The notes beneath the pieces are model-generated. The model had not been told where the DNA came from. It ran no database searches and saw only the letters and a program-made list of their open reading frames with translations. From assembly GCA_043822065.1 (NCBI GenBank), contig JBDRCC010000008.1:1-25130 (forward strand): a stretch of 25,130 nt of DNA. Reading direction: 5' to 3'. This DNA comes from an archaeon. GTDB taxonomy: Archaea > Undinarchaeota > CAZHTU01 > JBDRCC01. Position numbers and translations under genes: made by a program. Below, one piece after another: positions 568 through 21,928 of the stretch (positions within the stretch are counted from its first letter, which is position 1; each line of letters opens with the position of its first letter).

Positions 568-1329
568 TTAATGTTTTGACCTTAGTTTACTCCATTCACT
601 ATAGATATGGTCATATTTCATTCTCATGTAAGTCCCATATAATTCTTTCGAAATTCCCAAATCGACTTTTTCAACTTCTTGCATCTTTGACTTCGCATCA
701 ACCAAACATTCTTTTATATAATCTAAATGTTGTTTCTTTGAATAGAACTTAGTCAAAAGCAATTGCATAGTCTGGTATGCTTCATATGCAAATGGAGGGA
801 TATCAAAATCTTCCGAAAGAGGGAGGTTTTGCTCTTCCGTTCTCCTTTGAGATTGTTTAATAAGCTTTTGGGGATTATAATGGAGGTAACCACTACGGAG
901 ATCAGATAACGACTGGAGTTTATCTTTCATAGGAATAATCCCTAATTTTTTAATGACTTTATAATCTTGTATTAATTGACCTAATGTAGTGTAAGAAGTT
1001 ATTCGAGTTCCGTAGTCTATAGGTACCCCTCTCAAATACTCGTATTTAATAACTAATTCGCAACAAGTCGCAGAGCAAGCTATGCTCGCAAGGTAGTATC
1101 CATTCTTATAACAAAGATACGCTTGCTCGGCGAATGGTTCTATTAGCTCTTGCAGACCATACCATTCTTTTTCATTAAGATACCAATCAGTTATGAGTAC
1201 GTGGGGTTCTGGGAATTGTATAAACTGAATATTTGGCTGCTTTATGGGTCTTGGATAAAAATGGCCATCGGCGTCCTCAATAAAAACTGAGGTTCTGCCC
1301 CGGTAGGCATCATTTATCCTGTCTGTCAT
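568..1329 (-). CDS. HEPN-superfamily (DUF4145-like) protein, putative RNase
   Basis: 253 aa. EQAYLCYKNGYYLASIACSATCCE, TLGQLI and LRSGYLH (Rx4H) match the DUF4145/HEPN pattern. GAGG SD-like sequence upstream. Confidence 0.65.
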   Translation of the reverse strand: MTDRINDAYRGRTSVFIEDADGHFYPRPIKQPNIQFIQFPEPHVLITDWYLNEKEWYGLQELIEPFAEQAYLCYKNGYYLASIACSATCCELVIKYEYLRGVPIDYGTRITSYTTLGQLIQDYKVIKKLGIIPMKDKLQSLSDLRSGYLHYNPQKLIKQSQRRTEEQNLPLSEDFDIPPFAYEAYQTMQLLLTKFYSKKQHLDYIKECLVDAKSKMQEVEKVDLGISKELYGTYMRMKYDHIYSEWSKLRSKH

Positions 1330-1369
1330 CGTATTTTCCTCTTAATACCTCTCTTCACCTCTATTCTAT

Positions 1370-1380
1370 AAAAAAATAAG
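1370..1380 (-). terminator. Oligo-T tract, probable rRNA operon terminator
   Basis: CTTATTTTTTT on the minus strand immediately after the 3' arm of the 23S processing stem. Could also serve as the TATA box (TTTTATAG) of the downstream gene. Confidence 0.5.
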
Positions 1381-1446
1381 TCATAAGCCATCCTGCTTTG
1401 CCATATTCCCCAAGCGCGCATGTTTCTGGGCGTGGCTGAAAACTGT
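1381..1446 (-). other. 3' arm of the 23S pre-rRNA processing stem with BHB
   Basis: Transcript GGAAUA-UGGC-AAA-GCAGGAUGG pairs with CCAUCCUGC-GCCA-CAA-UAUUCC from 4389-4484, giving a canonical 3-4-3 BHB. Confidence 0.9.
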
Positions 1447-1449
1447 AAC

Positions 1450-4388
<2,939 letters not shown>

Positions 4389-4484
4389 AACATTTTCAGC
4401 CTAACGCTAGAACAAAGTCCTAACGTTTTGCCCTCAAAACGATTGCGCGTCTTGAGGAATATTGTGGCGCAGGATGGCCTATGA
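4389..4484 (-). other. 5' arm of the 23S processing stem with BHB
   Basis: Long imperfect inverted repeat of 1381-1446. Bulge at 4462-4464 and central helix at 4465-4468. Confidence 0.9.
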
Positions 4485-4615
4485 TGGATCATTAACCCCT
4501 CATCGCGCCGCCGACTGGAGGCGCTGGGTTTTACCCAGGCAGACGAATCTGCCCTTCACACCAAGCGGGGTTTCCGCCCGTGCTGTTTCATCGAAACGAT
4601 GAATGTGATGCGCAG

Positions 4616-4879
4616 TTACAGGAACTGCTCGTTTTCCTTTGACGTCATTTTGCCGACTGCCTCTGAGACTGAAAGGGTGTTGTCCTCTACGGTCTGCCCG
4701 CAGTCGTTGCACACTTTCTTGTGCGTGCTTTCGACGTCCGATGTGCAGTTTTTGCAGACCCGCTTCCCGAAGAGGAATATTGCCCTCTTCGTCTGGCTTG
4801 CGGGAATTGTGCCGCACTTTGCGCAGTAAAACTGCTCCTCCACTGCGTTTTTGTCACAGTACGGGCAGTTTTCCGCCAT
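4616..4879 (-). CDS. Double zinc-ribbon protein encoded inside the 16S-23S spacer
   Basis: 87 aa with four CxxC pairs (CPYC, CAKC, CKNC, CNDC). ATG start preceded by AAAGGA, same strand as the rRNAs. Confidence 0.75.
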   Translation of the reverse strand: MAENCPYCDKNAVEEQFYCAKCGTIPASQTKRAIFLFGKRVCKNCTSDVESTHKKVCNDCGQTVEDNTLSVSEAVGKMTSKENEQFL

Positions 4880-4892
4880 TTTTTTCCTTTCA

Positions 4893-4918
4893 GTTTTTTT
4901 GTATCAGCTTAAGCTGAC
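4893..4918 (-). repeat. Truncated copy of the tRNA-associated hairpin repeat
   Basis: GTCAGCTTAAGCTGATACAAAAAAAC shares TCAGCTT..AAGCTGATRCAAA with the insert at 18365-18425 but lacks the central loop. Starts 2 nt after tRNA-Ala. Confidence 0.5.
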
Positions 4919-4919
4919 A

Positions 4920-5020
4920 TGGACCCGCCGAGATTTGAACTCGGGGCCTCTACCAGTCAGGAGCCCGATTTTACCCGGGCTGTGCCAGGGTAGCGCTCTA
5001 CCAGACTGAGCTACGGGCCC
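4920..5020 (-). tRNA. tRNA-Ala(GGC) with a 27-nt intron at 37/38 (4956-4982)
   Basis: Cloverleaf with acceptor GGGCCCG/CGGGTCC (G3:U70), loop CT-GGC-A[intron]T and T-loop TTCAAAT. The intron forms a BHB-like junction with one U-U mismatch. CCA is not encoded. Confidence 0.95.
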
Positions 5021-5037
5021 ATGATTGATGCTGGTTT

Positions 5038-5074
5038 GGTGTCCGATTTGACGCTTCGAGCAACCCTCTCAATT
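5038..5074 (-). other. 3' arm of the 16S processing stem
   Basis: GUUGCUCGAAG-CGUC-AAA-UCGGACACC pairs with GGUGUCCGA-A-GACG-AAA-CUUCGAGCAAC from 6614-6651. Confidence 0.85.
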
Positions 5075-5106
5075 AAAGTGCGGGTCGGAAGCCGACCCGC
5101 AATACT

Positions 5107-6580
<1,474 letters not shown>

Positions 6581-6613
6581 TGGTCGCTATCTTGCTAAAC
6601 TTTACTTAAATTG

Positions 6614-6651
6614 AATTGAGCGAGTTGCTCGAAGTTTCGTCTTCGGACACC
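6614..6651 (-). other. 5' arm of the 16S processing stem (relaxed BHB/BHL)
   Basis: Inverted repeat of 5038-5074: a 4-bp central helix, one 3-nt bulge and one 3x1 internal loop. Confidence 0.85.
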
Positions 6652-6874
6652 TACCTCACCAGCTGGCAGCTGCCAACCGGCTCATCTTTTGTACACAGAG
6701 CGAAAGGTGCCTCTCATGCTAGCGTCAAATGTATCGACGCAGTCAAAGCCATCGCCGGCTCTGTGCGTGAACTTATAACGAGTGCGCATCCCCTATAGCA
6801 TCGAAGGGAATACTTAACGACCTCCGGAGTTTAAGCGGAAGTCTCCTCTGTGTTCACCAACCCGTTATTAGTCA

Positions 6875-6895
6875 GAAAAGGTTTATAAAGGTTCT
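6875..6895. promoter_or_regulatory. Palindromic TATA box with BRE-like flanks, probably serving both the rRNA operon (-) and the 6912 gene (+)
   Basis: GAAAAGG-TTTATAAA-GGTTC. The ATG at 6912 lies about 23 nt downstream, consistent with a leaderless mRNA. Confidence 0.6.
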
Positions 6896-6911
6896 GTATA
6901 TATCCTGCGTC

Positions 6912-7502
6912 ATGGAAAAATACAGGCACAAAAAGCCCAACAGGCTGGTCGAATTAATCCCCGACAGCACGGCGTTCTACCTCATAATTGCCATCGTCGC
7001 CGTCCTCTCCCTGACCACGATTTTGTCCTTCGCAATCGAGTTCATCCAGCCAATCGTCAGGAAGGTTTCAGTCCTTGCCATGCTCATGGCATTTACCGCA
7101 CTCCTCAGGTACCCTGAAAGGTACAAGGCGCCGTTCTCATTCAACGTCGCCATGGCTTTTACAATTCTCGTCACAATCTCCGACGGCATAATCGCAGGCA
7201 TGATATTCGGCACCATACTCTCGTTTGTCGAGTGCAGGACCACCCTTCACTACAACAGCCTGCCGATAACAATGTTCGAGCGCTGGCTCTGCGCGGTTCT
7301 GGCTGCGGTTTTCTACGCAGGAGGGGGCGTCGTCTTTTACCCGGTCATTTTCATCGCGCTGACCCACCTGGTTTCAATCCCAATCCGGATGACGATTGGC
7401 GACGCGCCGATTCCGCTCATGCTGGTCTATGCCGCGTTCAACACCCTTTGGCAGGGGTGGTTCCTTTCCGTTTTAGGCTCGACGTTCCTTGCGCTCATCT
7501 AA
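6912..7502 (+). CDS. Membrane protein, ECF S-component-like
   Basis: 196 aa with about 6 TM helices. AFTILVTISDGIIAGMIFG resembles the S-component GxxxGxxxG segment and resembles 9436-10209. Confidence 0.6.
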   Translation: MEKYRHKKPNRLVELIPDSTAFYLIIAIVAVLSLTTILSFAIEFIQPIVRKVSVLAMLMAFTALLRYPERYKAPFSFNVAMAFTILVTISDGIIAGMIFGTILSFVECRTTLHYNSLPITMFERWLCAVLAAVFYAGGGVVFYPVIFIALTHLVSIPIRMTIGDAPIPLMLVYAAFNTLWQGWFLSVLGSTFLALI

Positions 7503-15470: not shown

Positions 15471-15480
15471 TAAAATAAGG

Positions 15481-15572
15481 GGCCGAAGCCGAGATTTGAA
15501 CTCGGGGCGGGGGATTTCTGCAACTATTGGTTGCCACAGTCCCCCATGTTACCAGGCTACACCACTTCGGCC
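15481..15572 (-). tRNA. tRNA-His(GTG) with encoded G-1 and an 18-nt intron at 37/38 (15516-15533)
   Basis: Acceptor GCCGAAG/CTTCGGC, C73, loop CT-GTG-G[intron]A. CTGT/GCAG central helix with two 3-nt bulges. Confidence 0.95.
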
Positions 15573-18510: not shown

Positions 18511-19644
18511 TTACGGCAGCCAGTCCTCGTTCTTTATCTTTTCTGGGAGGTACTCCTCCGAGACGAATTCGAGGGACTTGTTTGCGAGCGCCTGCTGCTC
18601 TATCCTCAGCCCCATTGTCATCATCTTCTTCAGCTCATCCTGCCAGTGCTTGTTCTGGAACCACGGGTACTTGAGCTCCTCACGTATCCTCTTCTTGTCG
18701 AGCTCCTTGAGCCTTTCAGTGACGTTCTGGAGCTTGTAGTTCTCGATGTCGTCCATCCGCATCCCGATGAACTTGCACTCCGGCGTGCCGAGCTGGTCGG
18801 AGAGGTAGGCAAGGTTTATCGAGCCCATCTTTATGACCGAGTATATGTAGTACCCATAGGGGTCCCCGTCCGTGAAAACGATTATCGGCATCTTCTTTTC
18901 TTCGCTCAGCTTGTGTATGAGCCGCCTTATGCCCCTTGACGCCTGCCCTTGGGTAGCAAGGAGTATCGCCTTGTTCTTCTCGGCGAACTTTTCCTCTATC
19001 AGCCGCTCAAACATGGCGGCGGTCTCTATCACGAGGGCGTACTTCGCCTTGACCGACTTTATCTCGAGCTCCTCGACGTTTGAGGGAATGCCCCATCCGC
19101 CCCTCCCGAGCTTCGAGCAGTCTATCTTGTCCTTGCCGTCCTTAATGACAATGTCTCCGTACAGGTAGCCCTTCCTGTCCGCAGATATGTTGAGCCTTTC
19201 CCGCAGGGTGTCGAGCATCCGCTCAAGGTCCTCTATGCACGGGTCTGACTCCTCCTGCCCCTCGAATGTGTTATCGTTCGTGCTTCCGAGGGTGTGCTTT
19301 AGCTGGTAGTAGACCTCCCTGATGCTTGCGTGCTTGTTCGCGTCAACAAGCCTTTTGGCGAGCGACGCTACGAGGACTGTCTGCATGAACTTCCGCGCGT
19401 GCGCGACGTTCATGAAATGCCGGTAGGAGTATTTGTTTCCGAGCTTCAGCAGCCTCTCCTTGGTGTCGAAATAGACGTTGTTCAGCCCCCGCATGGGTAT
19501 CCTTAGTGCCGGGTCCTTCTGCTGCGAAAACGAGTCGACTACTGTCTTGCCCATAGTCGTTATCTTGCCAGAGACGTCCTTCCCAGTGTAAATCGCCTTT
19601 GTCTTCTTCACTCCAGCCGCCTTCTGTATTTTCGACGTTGCCAT
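18511..19644 (-). CDS. top6A: DNA topoisomerase VI subunit A
   Basis: SIREVYY catalytic Tyr, QEESD, TOPRIM IE and [14 protein letters not shown]. Confidence 0.97.
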
Positions 19645-21414
19645 TTACTCATCGCCTCCGCCGTTTTCTTCCTCATCCTCTGAGAACTCTTCCTTTTTCC
19701 CCCTGCCTGCATTTTCCTTAGTGCCTGGTATAAGCTCCATCATCTTCTGCTTGCTGGTGTCTATCTCCCGTTGATCCTCGATTGTCAGCCCTGGCCCCCT
19801 CTCCTTCGCCATCTTCGTCGGGACTGCCTTCGACTTGAGGTCCTCCAGGCTTCCGAACCGCTTCTCCGCGAGGGTGTCTATGCTGCTGAGTATCTTCTTC
19901 TCCGGCTTGCCGGTTATCTCCGCCAGCGCCCTGGCTACCTCCTTTCCGTAGGCGTCTATTGTGACCCTCTTGGATATCTTATCTTTCGCCCTGTACTTCG
20001 ACCTGAGGTGCGCTCCAAGCTGGCGCCCGCACTCCTGCAGGGCAAGCTTCATCTCGTCTATTATCTCAGGGTAATTGGCTATGGCCTCCTTGGACTCCGA
20101 GGTGTACGGCACCCACACCGACGCCATGTGCACCGCTACTACGATGGGGCCCTTCGGCACTCCGCGCCCGCCCGTTTGATTGAGCCCATACCGCTTCCAG
20201 TTAGTCTCCGATACTGCAGCGGTGACTGCGCAGCCGCTCTTCTGGTAGAGCAGGGGCACCTTGTTTGCGTACCTCATTATCTTGGCTTCCGTGAGCGACT
20301 TCTCGTCATCGTCCCTTTCAGTCCTGTCAATCTCGCCGCCCCAGGCAATTCCTGCCTCTATCTGGAACGGGTATCCGCGGTAGACTGCCGGCGGCCTTGT
20401 TACTGCGGCGACAAACTCTGCCTCTATCTCCTTTTTAAGCCCTGCTTCAACGCCGCCCTTACCTATCGGGGAGAGGCAGTCAGTCGGCGGGGACATGAGC
20501 TGCGCCCCCTGCATCGCAAGAAGCAGGCGCTCTGACTCGTCCCTGCTGAATTTCCTTGGCTGGACCTGCGGGTCAACCTGCGCCTCTTTGCATATCTTTG
20601 TTATTGACGTTGAGCCCATTCTTGAGAACTCGTTGGAGAGGAAAGACCTGAGGTTTCTCGCCTTGCTTTCGCGCATCATGCGCATCAGTATGCCGAGCTC
20701 TATGCCGTGCGGGTGCGGCTTAATCTGCTTCGGCATCTTGGGCAGGCTGTCCATCGCCCGCTTGTAGAGTATCTTAGTCCCGTCCGGCTCCTTGAACGTT
20801 ATTTCGGCGTACGGGTTCATTATCGCGACCTGCCTAAGGAACTCATAGGGCGAGTGGTGCGTCTTGACGTACTTCCCGACGAGCTCCATCTCAACCCGCG
20901 TCCCGTGCTTTGCCCAGTTCTTGACGGTCTCTTCTTTGGTTATGGTAGGCCTGTTCTTCTTGGTGTCAATCAGCAGTTCATAATACTGGGCTTCCTTGTC
21001 GCTGTCCGTCCTGGAGTAAACCTTAGTTGATTTGCCCGTTGTCAGCTGGGAGTAAAGGACGGAGGCAGATATGCCAATCCCCTGCTGCCCGCGCGACTGC
21101 TTGAGCCTGTGGAACTTTGAACCGTAGAGGAGCTGCCCGAACACCCTGGTTATGTGGTCCTTCTTGATTCCGGGGCCGTTGTCCTCGACAGAGACCTTGA
21201 ACCTGTCCTCCCTTACCTGCTCTATGTCGACCTTGACATCCGGGAGTATCCTCGCCTCTTCGCAGGCGTCAAGCGAGTTGTCAACCGCCTCCTTGACCAC
21301 GGTAATGAGCGCTTTTTGCGGGTTGTCGAATCCAAGGAGGTGCCTGTTCTTCTCAAAGAATTCTGAGATTGCGATCTCCTTCATTTCCGATGCCATCTCT
21401 TCCGCGCTTCCCAT
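19645..21414 (-). CDS. top6B: DNA topoisomerase VI subunit B
   Basis: GHKL motifs KEAVDNSLDA, DNGPGI and SRGQQGIG, plus PHPHG, RYANKVPL and VPYTSESKEA. Confidence 0.98.
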   Translation of the reverse strand: MGSAEEMASEMKEIAISEFFEKNRHLLGFDNPQKALITVVKEAVDNSLDACEEARILPDVKVDIEQVREDRFKVSVEDNGPGIKKDHITRVFGQLLYGSKFHRLKQSRGQQGIGISASVLYSQLTTGKSTKVYSRTDSDKEAQYYELLIDTKKNRPTITKEETVKNWAKHGTRVEMELVGKYVKTHHSPYEFLRQVAIMNPYAEITFKEPDGTKILYKRAMDSLPKMPKQIKPHPHGIELGILMRMMRESKARNLRSFLSNEFSRMGSTSITKICKEAQVDPQVQPRKFSRDESERLLLAMQGAQLMSPPTDCLSPIGKGGVEAGLKKEIEAEFVAAVTRPPAVYRGYPFQIEAGIAWGGEIDRTERDDDEKSLTEAKIMRYANKVPLLYQKSGCAVTAAVSETNWKRYGLNQTGGRGVPKGPIVVAVHMASVWVPYTSESKEAIANYPEIIDEMKLALQECGRQLGAHLRSKYRAKDKISKRVTIDAYGKEVARALAEITGKPEKKILSSIDTLAEKRFGSLEDLKSKAVPTKMAKERGPGLTIEDQREIDTSKQKMMELIPGTKENAGRGKKEEFSEDEEENGGGDE

Positions 21415-21415
21415 C

Positions 21416-21928
21416 TTATACTGTGCTCCTTTGCAGGAACCGCATTACGGTCGAGTGCTCCTGCCCGTTTCCAAGCCGTGTGACTGCTTCCCTTGCGGTG
21501 GCGACGTCCTCAATCTTCCCTATTATGCCGACCGTTTTTCCGTATATCACTATGTTTGTGCTTGTCATCTCCTCTATGCGCTCCTTCGCCTTTCCGTCCC
21601 GCCCGATTATCCGCCCCCGTATCCTGTCGAGGTGCTGGGGCTGGACGAACTCCGTGAGCTCTACAAGCTCAAGGACGCAGTCTGGCTCCTCCGATATCCT
21701 CATCGCGGTCTCCGGGTTGAAGCCGCGCGCAATCGCCTTTACGATGTCCCGCGCCTTCCACTCGCCTAGCGGGTCCCTTGCGTTTTCCTTTCGCCGGATG
21801 GAGACTATCCCCGTCTCACTGTTTATAGTTAAGATTGTTTCGGTGTTTGCCTCTATTTGCCCCTTCGTGGCGCCGTCGGTCCCTATCAGGACGGCAATCC
21901 GGTCCTTTGGAACCCTGACGTCTTCCAT
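21416..21928 (-). CDS. KH-domain rRNA-processing protein (Dim2/Pno1-like)
   Basis: RIAVLIG..G, AIARGF.PE.A, RIRGRIIG..G and G.EHSTV. Usual position upstream of top6B. Confidence 0.93.
   Translation of the reverse strand: MEDVRVPKDRIAVLIGTDGATKGQIEANTETILTINSETGIVSIRRKENARDPLGEWKARDIVKAIARGFNPETAMRISEEPDCVLELVELTEFVQPQHLDRIRGRIIGRDGKAKERIEEMTSTNIVIYGKTVGIIGKIEDVATAREAVTRLGNGQEHSTVMRFLQRSTV

What the first reader, a model, noticed from the sequence alone, without database searches (positions are those of the whole stretch)
4616..4919. Protein-coding double zinc-ribbon gene inside the rRNA operon spacer
Seen: an 87-aa ORF with four regularly spaced CxxC pairs and an AAAGGA SD lies between tRNA-Ala and the 23S processing stem. 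It is co-oriented and no T-rich terminator precedes it. Known: 16S-23S spacers normally hold only tRNA and processing structure. Inference: the mRNA would be released from the pre-rRNA by tRNA 3' processing and BHB cleavage, tying its synthesis to the rRNA promoter. It could be a ribosome-biogenesis regulator or a hitchhiking cargo gene.
Basis: partly seen in the sequence, partly recalled or inferred. Interest (0 to 1): 0.7.

Follow-up and report, generated by a model that had tools for sequence, protein, structure and literature searches.

The report
Zinc-ribbon gene inside archaeal rRNA spacer
A small, otherwise unknown zinc-binding protein gene sits in the spacer between the 16S and 23S ribosomal RNA genes of a tiny-genome archaeon, apparently with no promoter of its own, so it would be made only as a by-product of ribosomal RNA synthesis; this is rare but still unproven without RNA or protein data.

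Summary
The window carries one archaeal rRNA operon on the minus strand: 16S 6579..5108, intron-bearing tRNA-Ala(GGC) 5020..4920, an 87-aa ORF 4879..4616 with four CxxC pairs, and 23S 4396..1445.

ORF length alone means nothing here: 2189 of 5000 dinucleotide shuffles of the spacer give an ORF of 87 aa or more. No shuffle gives four CxxC or the observed codon score. That score sits at the median of the genome's own genes, and synonymous codon choice is native.

The protein is an orphan. Only generic zinc-ribbon similarity was found, and Pfam DZR and DZR_2 score just under their cut-offs.

Both rRNAs are flanked by long helices with canonical bulge-helix-bulge motifs, and the ORF lies outside both. 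The genome's own BRE/TATA model finds the operon promoter at 6897 and nothing before the ORF. No T5+ run occurs before a T7 at 1376.

Most likely this is a real small gene co-transcribed with pre-rRNA and released by tRNA 3' processing and EndA cleavage. That step is inferred, not shown. The SD is weak and the RNA is unusually structured.

One phylum relative has a different orphan ORF at the same spot. Others have kilobases of genes between 16S and 23S.

The parts
6882..6897 (-). BRE/TATA-like operon promoter, about 300 nt upstream of 16S
   Evidence: Best hit (14.8 bits) of a BRE/TATA matrix trained on this genome's own gene starts, scanned over 7000..1300
6614..6651 (-). 5' strand of the 16S processing helix (4-bp helix 6641..6638, 3-nt bulge 6637..6635)
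   Evidence: Cofold with 5074..5038: 36 pairs, -55.1 kcal/mol, bulge-helix-bulge geometry
5108..6579 (-). 16S rRNA
   Evidence: Rfam RF01959, 1503.8 bits, full length. Only copy in the assembly
5038..5074 (-). 3' strand of the 16S processing helix (bulge 5049..5047)
4920..5020 (-). tRNA-Ala(GGC) with an intron of about 27 nt (my reading: 4982..4956)
   Evidence: Rfam tRNA 59.3 bits. ARAGORN -i calls Ala(ggc) with an intron. G3:U70 seen. The 74-nt spliced form was aligned to other tRNA-Ala genes
4902..4919 (-). 7-bp hairpin (12-nt palindrome) directly after the tRNA 3' end. It would be the 5' end of the released ORF RNA
4885..4890 (-). AAAGGA, a weak Shine-Dalgarno-like element in an A-rich leader
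   Evidence: 4-bp AGGA duplex with the 16S 3' tail, -4.0 kcal/mol. 31% of random 18-mers do as well
4616..4879 (-). 87-aa ORF encoding a double zinc-ribbon-like protein (four CxxC)
   Evidence: Codon score 0.386 against an in-frame mean of 0.36 and an off-frame mean of -0.51. 0 of 5000 shuffles match it. Synonymous codon usage is at the 78th percentile of native windows. Pfam DZR_2 26.7 bits against a cut-off of 27
4485..4615 (-). Cluster of four to five short GC-rich hairpins between the stop codon and the 23S helix
   Evidence: Fold of 4640..4485: -60.4 kcal/mol, z = -2.99
4451..4484 (-). 5' strand of the 23S processing helix (4-bp helix 4468..4465, 3-nt bulge 4464..4462 = predicted EndA site and 3' end of the ORF RNA)
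   Evidence: Cofold with 1414..1381: 37 pairs, -61.5 kcal/mol, canonical 3-4-3 BHB
1445..4396 (-). 23S rRNA
   Evidence: Rfam RF02540, 2635.2 bits, model positions 1-2987
1381..1414 (-). 3' strand of the 23S processing helix (bulge 1399..1397)
1370..1376 (-). T7 run, the likely operon terminator
   Evidence: First T5+ run on the sense strand downstream of the promoter

Best explanation
The ORF at 4879..4616 is a real gene for a small (87 aa) double zinc-ribbon-type, probably zinc- and nucleic-acid-binding protein. It has come to reside in the 16S-23S spacer of the organism's single rRNA operon.

It has no promoter or terminator of its own. It is transcribed from the rRNA promoter (about 6897) as part of the pre-rRNA.

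RNase Z cleavage at the tRNA-Ala 3' end (4920|4919) would create its 5' end with a 40-nt A-rich leader. EndA cleavage in the 23S bulge-helix-bulge (about 4463) would create its 3' end. RtcB may then ligate that end to the short 3' trailer.

The output of this roughly 460-nt mRNA would therefore be tied to rRNA synthesis. A weak SD and a compact RNA fold would damp translation.

Shown: the anatomy, the coding signature, the processing helices and the presence of the enzymes. Inferred: co-transcription, the cleavage sites, translation and any function.

My best guess for function is a passenger or accessory RNA-binding protein rather than an essential ribosome-biogenesis factor.
For: Coding:
- The in-frame codon score is 0.386. 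That is the 50th percentile of native in-frame windows and the 99.8th percentile of off-frame windows.
- 14 spurious ORFs inside the rRNA genes score -0.48 to -0.05, and 0 of 5000 shuffles reach 0.386 or four CxxC.
- Synonymous codon choice is at the 78th percentile of native windows, and 0 of 2000 uniform-synonymous nulls reach it.
- GC by codon position is 0.45/0.40/0.73 against 0.54/0.40/0.68 in the genome's long ORFs.
- The Pfam DZR profile aligns over its whole length (profile positions 1-45, residues 5-61).
- The nearest ESM Atlas clusters are DZR families at 0.86.

One transcription unit:
- The genome-trained BRE/TATA matrix scores 14.8 at 6897. It scores at most 1.6 upstream of the ORF, and -1.6 in the leaderless register, which 16% of random sites reach.
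- No T5+ run lies between 6897 and the T7 at 1376.

Processing:
- Both helices carry canonical BHB motifs and the ORF lies outside both.
- EndA (112 bits) and RtcB (578.7 bits) are present.
- BHB cleavage, circularisation and ligation of the leftover spacers are described for model archaea (passages read in PMC7038931, and PMC10351888).

Assembly coherence:
- Each end of the spacer is complementary to the outer flank of its rRNA gene (36 and 37 pairs). The spacer therefore belongs with the contig's flanks.

Precedent in kin:
- G011 has a 107-aa co-oriented ORF between tRNA-Ala and 23S, with a good SD and a codon score above all off-frame windows.
Against: - There are no homologs anywhere. The searches covered 5.8 billion protein clusters, 1.84 billion representatives, 41 and 17 related genomes, and genome and metagenome contigs. 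Purifying selection therefore cannot be shown.
- ORF length is not significant (2189 of 5000 shuffles).
- The SD duplex is no better than 31% of random sequence.
- ORF plus leader folds at -108 kcal/mol, z = -6.3 against shuffles. Against 700 native coding windows, z = -2.85 and 1 of 700 is as low. That is as structured as rRNA, and a 9-bp helix (4894..4886 with 4676..4668) covers the SD.
- The AlphaFold2 single-sequence model is poor (pLDDT 50).
- T5+ runs occur inside five other long archaeal spacers. Their absence here is therefore only weak evidence for read-through.
- There are no expression data of any kind.
Confidence: 0.55

Rival explanations
1. The stretch is structured spacer RNA and the ORF is untranslated. 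It is either an accident of a T-poor, terminator-free spacer or a decaying relic.
For: - 44% of shuffles give an ORF this long.
- The RNA is as folded as rRNA.
- The real sequence is more stable than 395 of 400 synonymous-codon shuffles.
- The ORF is an orphan.
- The SD is weak.
Against: - 0 of 5000 shuffles give four CxxC or the codon score.
- Synonymous codon usage is native.
- Two well-formed zinc-ribbon halves have 10-11-residue spacers, and the second knuckle of each is CxxCG.
- 14 spurious ORFs in the rRNA genes all score below 0.
Confidence: 0.2
2. It is a real gene but is transcribed from its own weak promoter inside the spacer, for example the TTAAG-containing palindrome at 4913..4908, giving a short-leader mRNA independent of rRNA synthesis.
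For: - Many genes in this genome are leaderless, with TATA at -28 to -30.
- An A/T-containing palindrome lies at -34 to -23.
- The analogous ORF in G011 has a TATA-like TTTAAAG about 45 nt upstream plus a strong SD (read by eye).
Against: - The genome-trained matrix gives at most 1.6 bits there, against 14.8 for the operon promoter and a gene median of -0.7. 16% of random sites do as well in the leaderless register.
- Even with such a promoter, read-through from the rRNA promoter would still cover the ORF.
Confidence: 0.12
3. It is recently captured cargo of a mobile or selfish element, in the way of intron or IVS ORFs in rRNA genes, and is of no use to the host.
For: - The spacer was remodelled. 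It carries tRNA-Ala(GGC) with an intron, whereas all 7 phylum relatives examined carry tRNA-Ala(UGC).
- A relative (G013) carries a PF05635 '23S rRNA IVS protein' gene 7 nt upstream of its 23S.
- The ORF is an orphan.
Against: - No second copy or related repeat exists in the genome.
- No terminal inverted or direct repeats bracket it.
- No endonuclease, transposase or PF05635 domain is among the 25 Pfam rows shown of 31.
- Codon usage is fully native.
Confidence: 0.08
4. The spacer is an assembly chimera at the rRNA locus of a metagenome-assembled genome.
For: rRNA loci in metagenome-assembled genomes are prone to chimerism (caution stated in PMC8997704, passage). No reads were available to check.
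Against: - Both spacer ends pair with the outer flanks of their rRNA genes over 36-37 bp, with BHB geometry.
- The ORF's codon usage matches the genome.
- The operon is single-copy and sits inside a 25-kb contig with archaeal genes on both sides.
Confidence: 0.04

Closest known systems
Canonical euryarchaeal-type linked rRNA operon (16S - tRNA-Ala - 23S) processed at bulge-helix-bulge motifs by EndA and RtcB
   Same: Gene order, co-orientation, a 711-nt spacer (linked by the 1500-bp criterion of Brewer et al., passage), long flanking helices with 3-4-3 BHB motifs, and EndA and RtcB present.
   Different: The spacer holds a protein-coding ORF. The tRNA is Ala(GGC) with an intron instead of Ala(UGC). 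5S is elsewhere, on C7. In my sample of 71 same-contig 16S-23S pairs the median spacer is 294 nt and 60 are 500 nt or shorter.
Unlinked rRNA genes, or genes inserted between 16S and 23S (Brewer et al.; noted as common in DPANN and Asgard archaea in PMC8997704)
   Same: Protein-coding DNA lies between 16S and 23S. In the same phylum, G004 (3.47 kb) and G013 (about 4.65 kb) have several genes there.
   Different: Here there is one small co-oriented ORF, a spacer under 1500 nt, no recognisable internal promoter or terminator, and both processing helices intact. It looks like a still-linked operon and possibly an early stage of the same process.
ORFs carried inside rRNA genes: 23S rRNA intervening-sequence protein (Pfam PF05635) and homing endonucleases of rRNA introns or insertions (for example in CPR bacteria; PMC11270868, seen only as a listing and the start of the abstract)
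   Same: A small protein gene rides on the rRNA transcript.
   Different: The ORF lies in the spacer outside the rRNA processing helices, not in an IVS or intron. No PF05635 or endonuclease domain was found.
Double zinc ribbon domain (Pfam DZR PF12773, DZR_2 PF18912). Also small archaeal multi-CPxCG zinc-finger micro-proteins; the latter comparison is recalled, not tested
   Same: Four CxxC knuckles in two ribbons, with the whole DZR profile aligned. The nearest ESM Atlas clusters are DZR families.
   Different: Scores fall just under the curated cut-offs. There is no detectable orthologue, and a 27-residue C-terminal tail has no match.

Membership tests
Linked archaeal rRNA operon with BHB processing | 16S and 23S co-oriented and no more than 1500 nt apart | tested here: met
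   The spacer 5107..4397 is 711 nt, on the same strand. The criterion is from 10.1101/705046.
Linked archaeal rRNA operon with BHB processing | Inverted repeats flanking each rRNA form helices with a 3-nt bulge, a 4-bp helix and a 3-nt bulge | tested here: met
   The cofolds give 36 pairs (16S) and 37 pairs (23S). Bulges are at 6637..6635 and 5049..5047, and at 4464..4462 and 1399..1397.
Linked archaeal rRNA operon with BHB processing | Splicing endonuclease EndA and ligase RtcB are encoded | tested here: met
   PF01974 at 112 bits on C6, and PF01139 at 578.7 bits on C19.
Linked archaeal rRNA operon with BHB processing | A single primary transcript covers 16S, the spacer and 23S | not testable with these tools
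   Only sequence signals are available: the promoter matrix and T-runs. No sequencing run was listed.
Double zinc ribbon (Pfam DZR / DZR_2) | Four CxxC pairs arranged as two zinc ribbons | tested here: met
   C5/C8, C19/C22, C42/C45 and C57/C60.
Double zinc ribbon (Pfam DZR / DZR_2) | Score at or above Pfam's gathering cut-off | tested here: not met
   DZR_2 scores 26.7 against 27. DZR scores 23.6 against 27.3.
Double zinc ribbon (Pfam DZR / DZR_2) | Zinc binding and zinc-ribbon fold | tested here: inconclusive
   The AlphaFold2 single-sequence model has pLDDT 50.1. The Atlas model has pLDDT 0.52.
rRNA-embedded selfish ORFs (PF05635 IVS protein; homing endonucleases) | The characteristic domain (PF05635, LAGLIDADG, HNH or GIY-YIG) | tested here: not met
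   None appears among the 25 rows shown of 31 Pfam families at E up to 10. There are no NCBIfam hits of that kind.
rRNA-embedded selfish ORFs (PF05635 IVS protein; homing endonucleases) | Located inside the rRNA gene (IVS or intron) | tested here: not met
   The ORF lies in the spacer, outside both processing helices.
Unlinked rRNA genes | More than 1500 nt between 16S and 23S, or the two on different strands or loci | tested here: not met
   711 nt, co-oriented.
Zinc-ribbon ribosomal proteins (e.g. L37e) | A family profile match | tested here: not met
   Ribosomal_L37e scores E 0.26, 11.8 bits against 27.6.

The most novel reading that the evidence does not exclude
The spacer ORF is a functional mRNA with no transcription signals of its own. 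It would be carved out of the pre-rRNA by the tRNA and rRNA processing machinery (RNase Z at its 5' end, EndA and RtcB at the 23S bulge-helix-bulge at its 3' end), so the cell makes the zinc-ribbon protein in step with ribosome synthesis.

Two further observations fit a broader reading. G011 has an unrelated orphan ORF at the same site, and G004 and G013 have kilobase gene insertions there. The tRNA-Ala-to-23S spacer of this small-genome archaeal phylum would then be a recurrent landing or birth site for genes, and the first step on the road to unlinked rRNA genes.
Probability: 0.35. Interest if true: 0.7.

Novelty: new variant of a known kind. Interest (0 to 1): 0.5.

Why it matters
Archaeal 16S-23S spacers are treated as holding only a tRNA and processing helices. 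In my sample, most spacers are too short to hold anything else.

A translated gene lacking its own promoter in such a spacer would be an mRNA matured by rRNA and tRNA processing enzymes. That would be a hard-wired way to couple a protein's dosage to ribosome production.

It would also give a concrete intermediate between linked operons and the unlinked rRNA genes that are common in DPANN and Asgard archaea. One phylum would show all the stages: a plain spacer, a spacer with one small ORF, and several kilobases of genes.

If the ORF is not translated, the finding shrinks to an unusually long, highly structured spacer in a single metagenome-assembled genome.

Tried and rejected
Homolog searches
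- The word-indexed search found only the protein itself.
- The exhaustive phmmer search gave 11 weak multi-zinc-ribbon hits, E 1e-5 or worse, all in long proteins.
- tblastn-type searches of 41 related genomes gave only two weak hits.
- The genome contigs and metagenome-contig scans gave only 35%-identity zinc-ribbon matches, in a Treponema MAG and three metagenome contigs. I did not follow these.
- No dN/dS was possible.

Sequencing runs
- None was listed and no RNA holder was listed.

Structure and families
- The AlphaFold2 single-sequence model was too poor to search with (pLDDT 50).
- The PDB sequence search had no hit below E 0.4.
- NCBIfam gave nothing above its cut-offs.
- Rfam at a permissive threshold found nothing in the spacer but the tRNA.

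Mobile-element idea
- blastn of the spacer against the genome found no second copy. A 31-nt match on C20 lies antisense in a GMP-synthase-like frame and is chance.
- No bracketing repeats were found.

Halophile idea
- The proteome (D+E)/(K+R) ratio is 0.95, which is not acidic.

G011
- Its 23S flanks fold into a short terminal helix only, and I found no clear BHB in one quick cofold. I therefore do not claim the same processing architecture there.
- Its ORF is also an orphan.

Spacer survey
- One search listed 150 of 282 matches. From those I used the 16S rows for handles up to G120 whose 23S lay on the same contig (72 rows), paired with 72 of the 23S rows.
- I left out genomes whose 16S and 23S lay on different contigs, and G013. 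Handles above G120 were not surveyed.
- Spacers of 500 nt or less were not inspected for ORFs.
- Sense ORFs in G079 (73 aa) and G060 (67-113 aa, two overlapping the tRNA) were not tested for codon usage.

Literature
- Searches surfaced no paper describing a protein gene inside a linked archaeal 16S-23S spacer. I judged this from the listings and the starts of abstracts only.
- Supplements were not available. The rRNA-organisation tables of PMC8997704 and of Brewer et al. may hold such cases.

Full report
WHAT IS THERE

The window is a whole 25,130-bp contig (C8) of a 1.03-Mb, 22-contig, 82%-complete archaeal assembly with 52.9% GC. Its phylum has only 17 species genomes in the collection, and its family and genus have no other member.

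Rfam finds the assembly's only 16S (6579..5108), a 101-nt tRNA (5020..4920) and a full-length 23S (4396..1445), all on the minus strand. 5S lies on another contig.

With introns allowed, ARAGORN calls the spacer tRNA Ala(GGC). It has G3:U70 and, by my reading, a 27-nt intron.

The 87-aa ATG ORF at 4879..4616 is co-oriented with the operon. It starts 40 nt after the tRNA 3' end and has CxxC at residues 5-8, 19-22, 42-45 and 57-60.

IS IT A GENE?

Length is not evidence. The sense strand of the spacer is T-poor (15.5% T in the ORF), and 2189 of 5000 dinucleotide shuffles of 4919..4397 contain an ORF of 87 aa or more.

What is not chance:
- None of the 5000 shuffles gives four CxxC, and none reaches the codon score.
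- The in-frame codon log-odds score is 0.386. Native genes average 0.36 +/- 0.16 in frame and -0.51 +/- 0.19 off frame. The other five frames of the ORF score -0.86 to 0.15.
- 14 spurious ORFs inside the rRNA genes score -0.48 to -0.05.
- Synonymous codon choice alone is at the 78th percentile of native windows. It beats 2000 of 2000 uniform-synonymous nulls.
- Only 2 of 6101 ORFs of 40-150 aa in the genome have four or more CxxC. The other is a 109-aa four-CxxC ORF on C1 that I read, without a family search, as a TFS/RpoM-type zinc-ribbon protein.

Pfam aligns the whole DZR profile to residues 5-61, and DZR_2 reaches 26.7 bits against a cut-off of 27. The nearest ESM Atlas clusters are DZR families at 0.86, which is a lead only.

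The protein has no detectable orthologue in any search, so conservation and selection cannot be assessed. The AlphaFold2 model is uninformative.

THE TRANSCRIPTION UNIT

I trained a BRE/TATA matrix on this genome's own gene starts. Many genes are leaderless, with TTTAWA peaking 28-30 nt before the ATG.
- Across 7000..1300 the best hit is at 6897 (14.8 bits), about 300 nt upstream of 16S.
- Nothing upstream of the ORF exceeds 1.6 bits.
- In the leaderless register the best score is -1.6, which 16% of random sites reach.

On the sense strand no T5+ run occurs between that promoter and a T7 at 1376..1370, just past the 23S helix.

One caveat applies. Five other long archaeal spacers that I inspected do contain T5+ runs. 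Such runs are evidently tolerated in pre-rRNA, so their absence here is weak evidence.

PROCESSING ANATOMY

Cofolding the flanks gives two helices:
- a 36-pair 16S helix, 6651..6614 with 5074..5038;
- a 37-pair 23S helix, 4484..4451 with 1414..1381.

Each has a 3-nt bulge, a 4-bp helix and a 3-nt bulge on opposite strands. This is the bulge-helix-bulge substrate of the splicing endonuclease. EndA and RtcB are encoded in the genome.

In model archaea, EndA cuts these motifs and RtcB circularises the pre-rRNAs. The leftover leader and spacer pieces are reported to be ligated as well (passages read in PMC7038931, and PMC10351888).

The ORF lies outside both helices. The expected product runs from the RNase Z cut after the tRNA discriminator (4919) to the 5' bulge of the 23S BHB (about 4463). 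That is roughly 460 nt, possibly ligated to the 28-nt trailer that ends at the T7. This is inference from anatomy. No RNA data could be obtained.

The complementarity of each spacer end to the outer flank of its rRNA gene also argues against a chimeric assembly of the spacer.

TRANSLATION SIGNALS AND RNA STRUCTURE: THE WEAK POINTS

The AAAGGA gives only a 4-bp AGGA duplex with the 16S tail (-4.0 kcal/mol). 63% of native genes are no better, but so are 69% of random 18-mers. In other words, 31% of random sequences do as well or better.

The leader plus ORF folds far more stably than expected:
- It folds at -108 kcal/mol, z = -6.3 against dinucleotide shuffles.
- Against 700 native coding windows corrected for GC, z = -2.85, and 1 of 700 is as low. 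The rRNA windows themselves average z = -2.0.
- Synonymous-codon shuffles that keep the protein average -96.7. Only 5 of 400 are as stable as the real sequence.

So part of the structure follows from the amino-acid sequence (Cys and Ala codon complementarity), and a smaller part looks selected. A perfect 9-bp helix (4894..4886 with 4676..4668) would cover the SD, although a 9-bp inverted repeat within 300 nt is not itself improbable.

I read this as an RNA shaped by life inside a pre-rRNA spacer. It is compact and stable, and probably translated at a low rate. The same data are the main support for the rival view, that it is a structured spacer with an untranslated frame.

RELATIVES

Spacers of the eight phylum relatives that have the region:
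- Five are plain 16S - tRNA-Ala - 23S spacers: G006 295 nt, G012 403, G014 446, G005 479 and G008 about 483.
- G011 has an 897-nt spacer with a co-oriented 107-aa ORF between tRNA-Ala(UGC) and 23S. It has a GAGGTGA SD. Its codon score of 0.208 is at the 10th percentile of in-frame windows but above every off-frame window and above the spurious rRNA ORFs (at most 0.115). It has no Pfam family and no homolog.
- G004 and G013 have 3.47 kb and about 4.65 kb between 16S and 23S, with several genes on both strands: NUDIX, tRNA-binding, CAP, CN-hydrolase, DUF488 and HTH_10. G013 also has a PF05635 '23S rRNA intervening-sequence protein' gene ending 7 nt before 23S.

All 7 relatives examined with a tRNA between 16S and 23S carry Ala(UGC) there. 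Here the spacer tRNA is Ala(GGC), with a different anticodon stem and an intron. Ala(UGC) sits on C7. The spacer has therefore been remodelled in this lineage.

In a wider sample, 71 16S-23S pairs lay on the same contig and strand among the 120 related genomes. The sample comes from a truncated listing and excludes pairs split over contigs.
- The median spacer is 294 nt.
- 60 pairs are 500 nt or shorter, 6 are 500-1500 nt and 5 are longer than 1500 nt.
- Of the six in the 500-1500 class, only G011 has a tRNA-independent, coding-like sense ORF. Sense ORFs in G079 and G060 were seen but not scored.

COMPARISON WITH WHAT IS KNOWN, AND NOVELTY

Genes between 16S and 23S are known as 'unlinked rRNA genes'. 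They are said to be prevalent in DPANN and Asgard archaea (passages in 10.1101/705046, and PMC8997704).

ORFs riding inside rRNA genes are also known: IVS proteins and homing endonucleases.

This case differs in four ways. The operon is still linked (711 nt). The processing helices are intact. The ORF is outside them. It has no recognisable signals of its own.

My literature searches (listings only) turned up no description of such a case. Supplements were closed. I rate it a new variant of a known kind.

VERDICT

My estimates:
- real gene: about 0.75;
- co-transcription with pre-rRNA, given a real gene: about 0.8;
- any role in ribosome biogenesis: speculative, about 0.2.

Interest is moderate at 0.5. 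The arrangement is rare and mechanistically suggestive. It rests on one metagenome-assembled genome, an orphan protein and no expression data.

Noticed in passing
window 4920-5020 (-); G000:C7:121615-121689: The spacer tRNA is Ala(GGC) with an intron of about 27 nt and its own anticodon stem. All 7 phylum relatives examined carry Ala(UGC) between 16S and 23S. This genome's Ala(UGC) sits on another contig.
   Followed up: partly
L036:1980-2303 (-) (G011:C12): A 107-aa acidic, helical orphan ORF with a GAGGTGA SD lies between tRNA-Ala(UGC) and 23S in an 897-nt spacer. Its codon score is above all off-frame windows. It has no Pfam family and no homolog.
   Followed up: partly
L035:1440-1799 (-) (G013:C22): A 119-aa PF05635 '23S rRNA intervening-sequence protein' gene (E 5.9e-38) ends 7 nt upstream of the 23S start. 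16S and 23S are about 4.65 kb apart, with DUF488, HTH_10 and CxxCxxCC genes between them. The tRNA-Ala(UGC) there has a 129-nt intron and lies on the opposite strand.
   Followed up: partly
L034:1451-4916 (G004:C47): 3.47 kb lie between co-oriented 16S and 23S. The stretch holds NUDIX, tRNA-binding, CAP and CN-hydrolase genes on both strands and an inverted tRNA-Ala(UGC).
   Followed up: partly
window 4772-4782 and 4454-4464: An exact 11-nt direct repeat is shared by the ORF and the 5' strand of the 23S helix at its BHB bulge. About 0.06 such repeats are expected by chance in 711 nt. It could allow alternative pairing.
   Followed up: no
window 4959-4980 and 4519-4540: The tRNA intron hairpin and a spacer hairpin downstream of the ORF are 77% alike over 22 nt.
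   Followed up: no
window 15479-15571 (-): ARAGORN in default mode calls this tRNA-Thr(tgt). With introns allowed it calls tRNA-Tyr(gta) with an 18-nt intron. Rfam at gathering threshold did not list it.
   Followed up: no
whole genome G000: TTTAWA boxes peak 28-30 nt before the ATG, preceded by an A-rich BRE. That implies many leaderless mRNAs. GGAGG is about six-fold enriched at -16..-6 in the rest.
   Followed up: partly
window 21416-21928 (-), 18511-21414 (-): A Pno1/Krr1-type KH-domain protein gene (a small-subunit biogenesis factor family) lies directly upstream of the topoisomerase VI B and A genes.
   Followed up: no
L054 (G030:C5:2943-3662): In another archaeal lineage, a 720-nt spacer owes its length to a 158-nt intron in tRNA-Ala(UGC), not to an ORF.
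   Followed up: no
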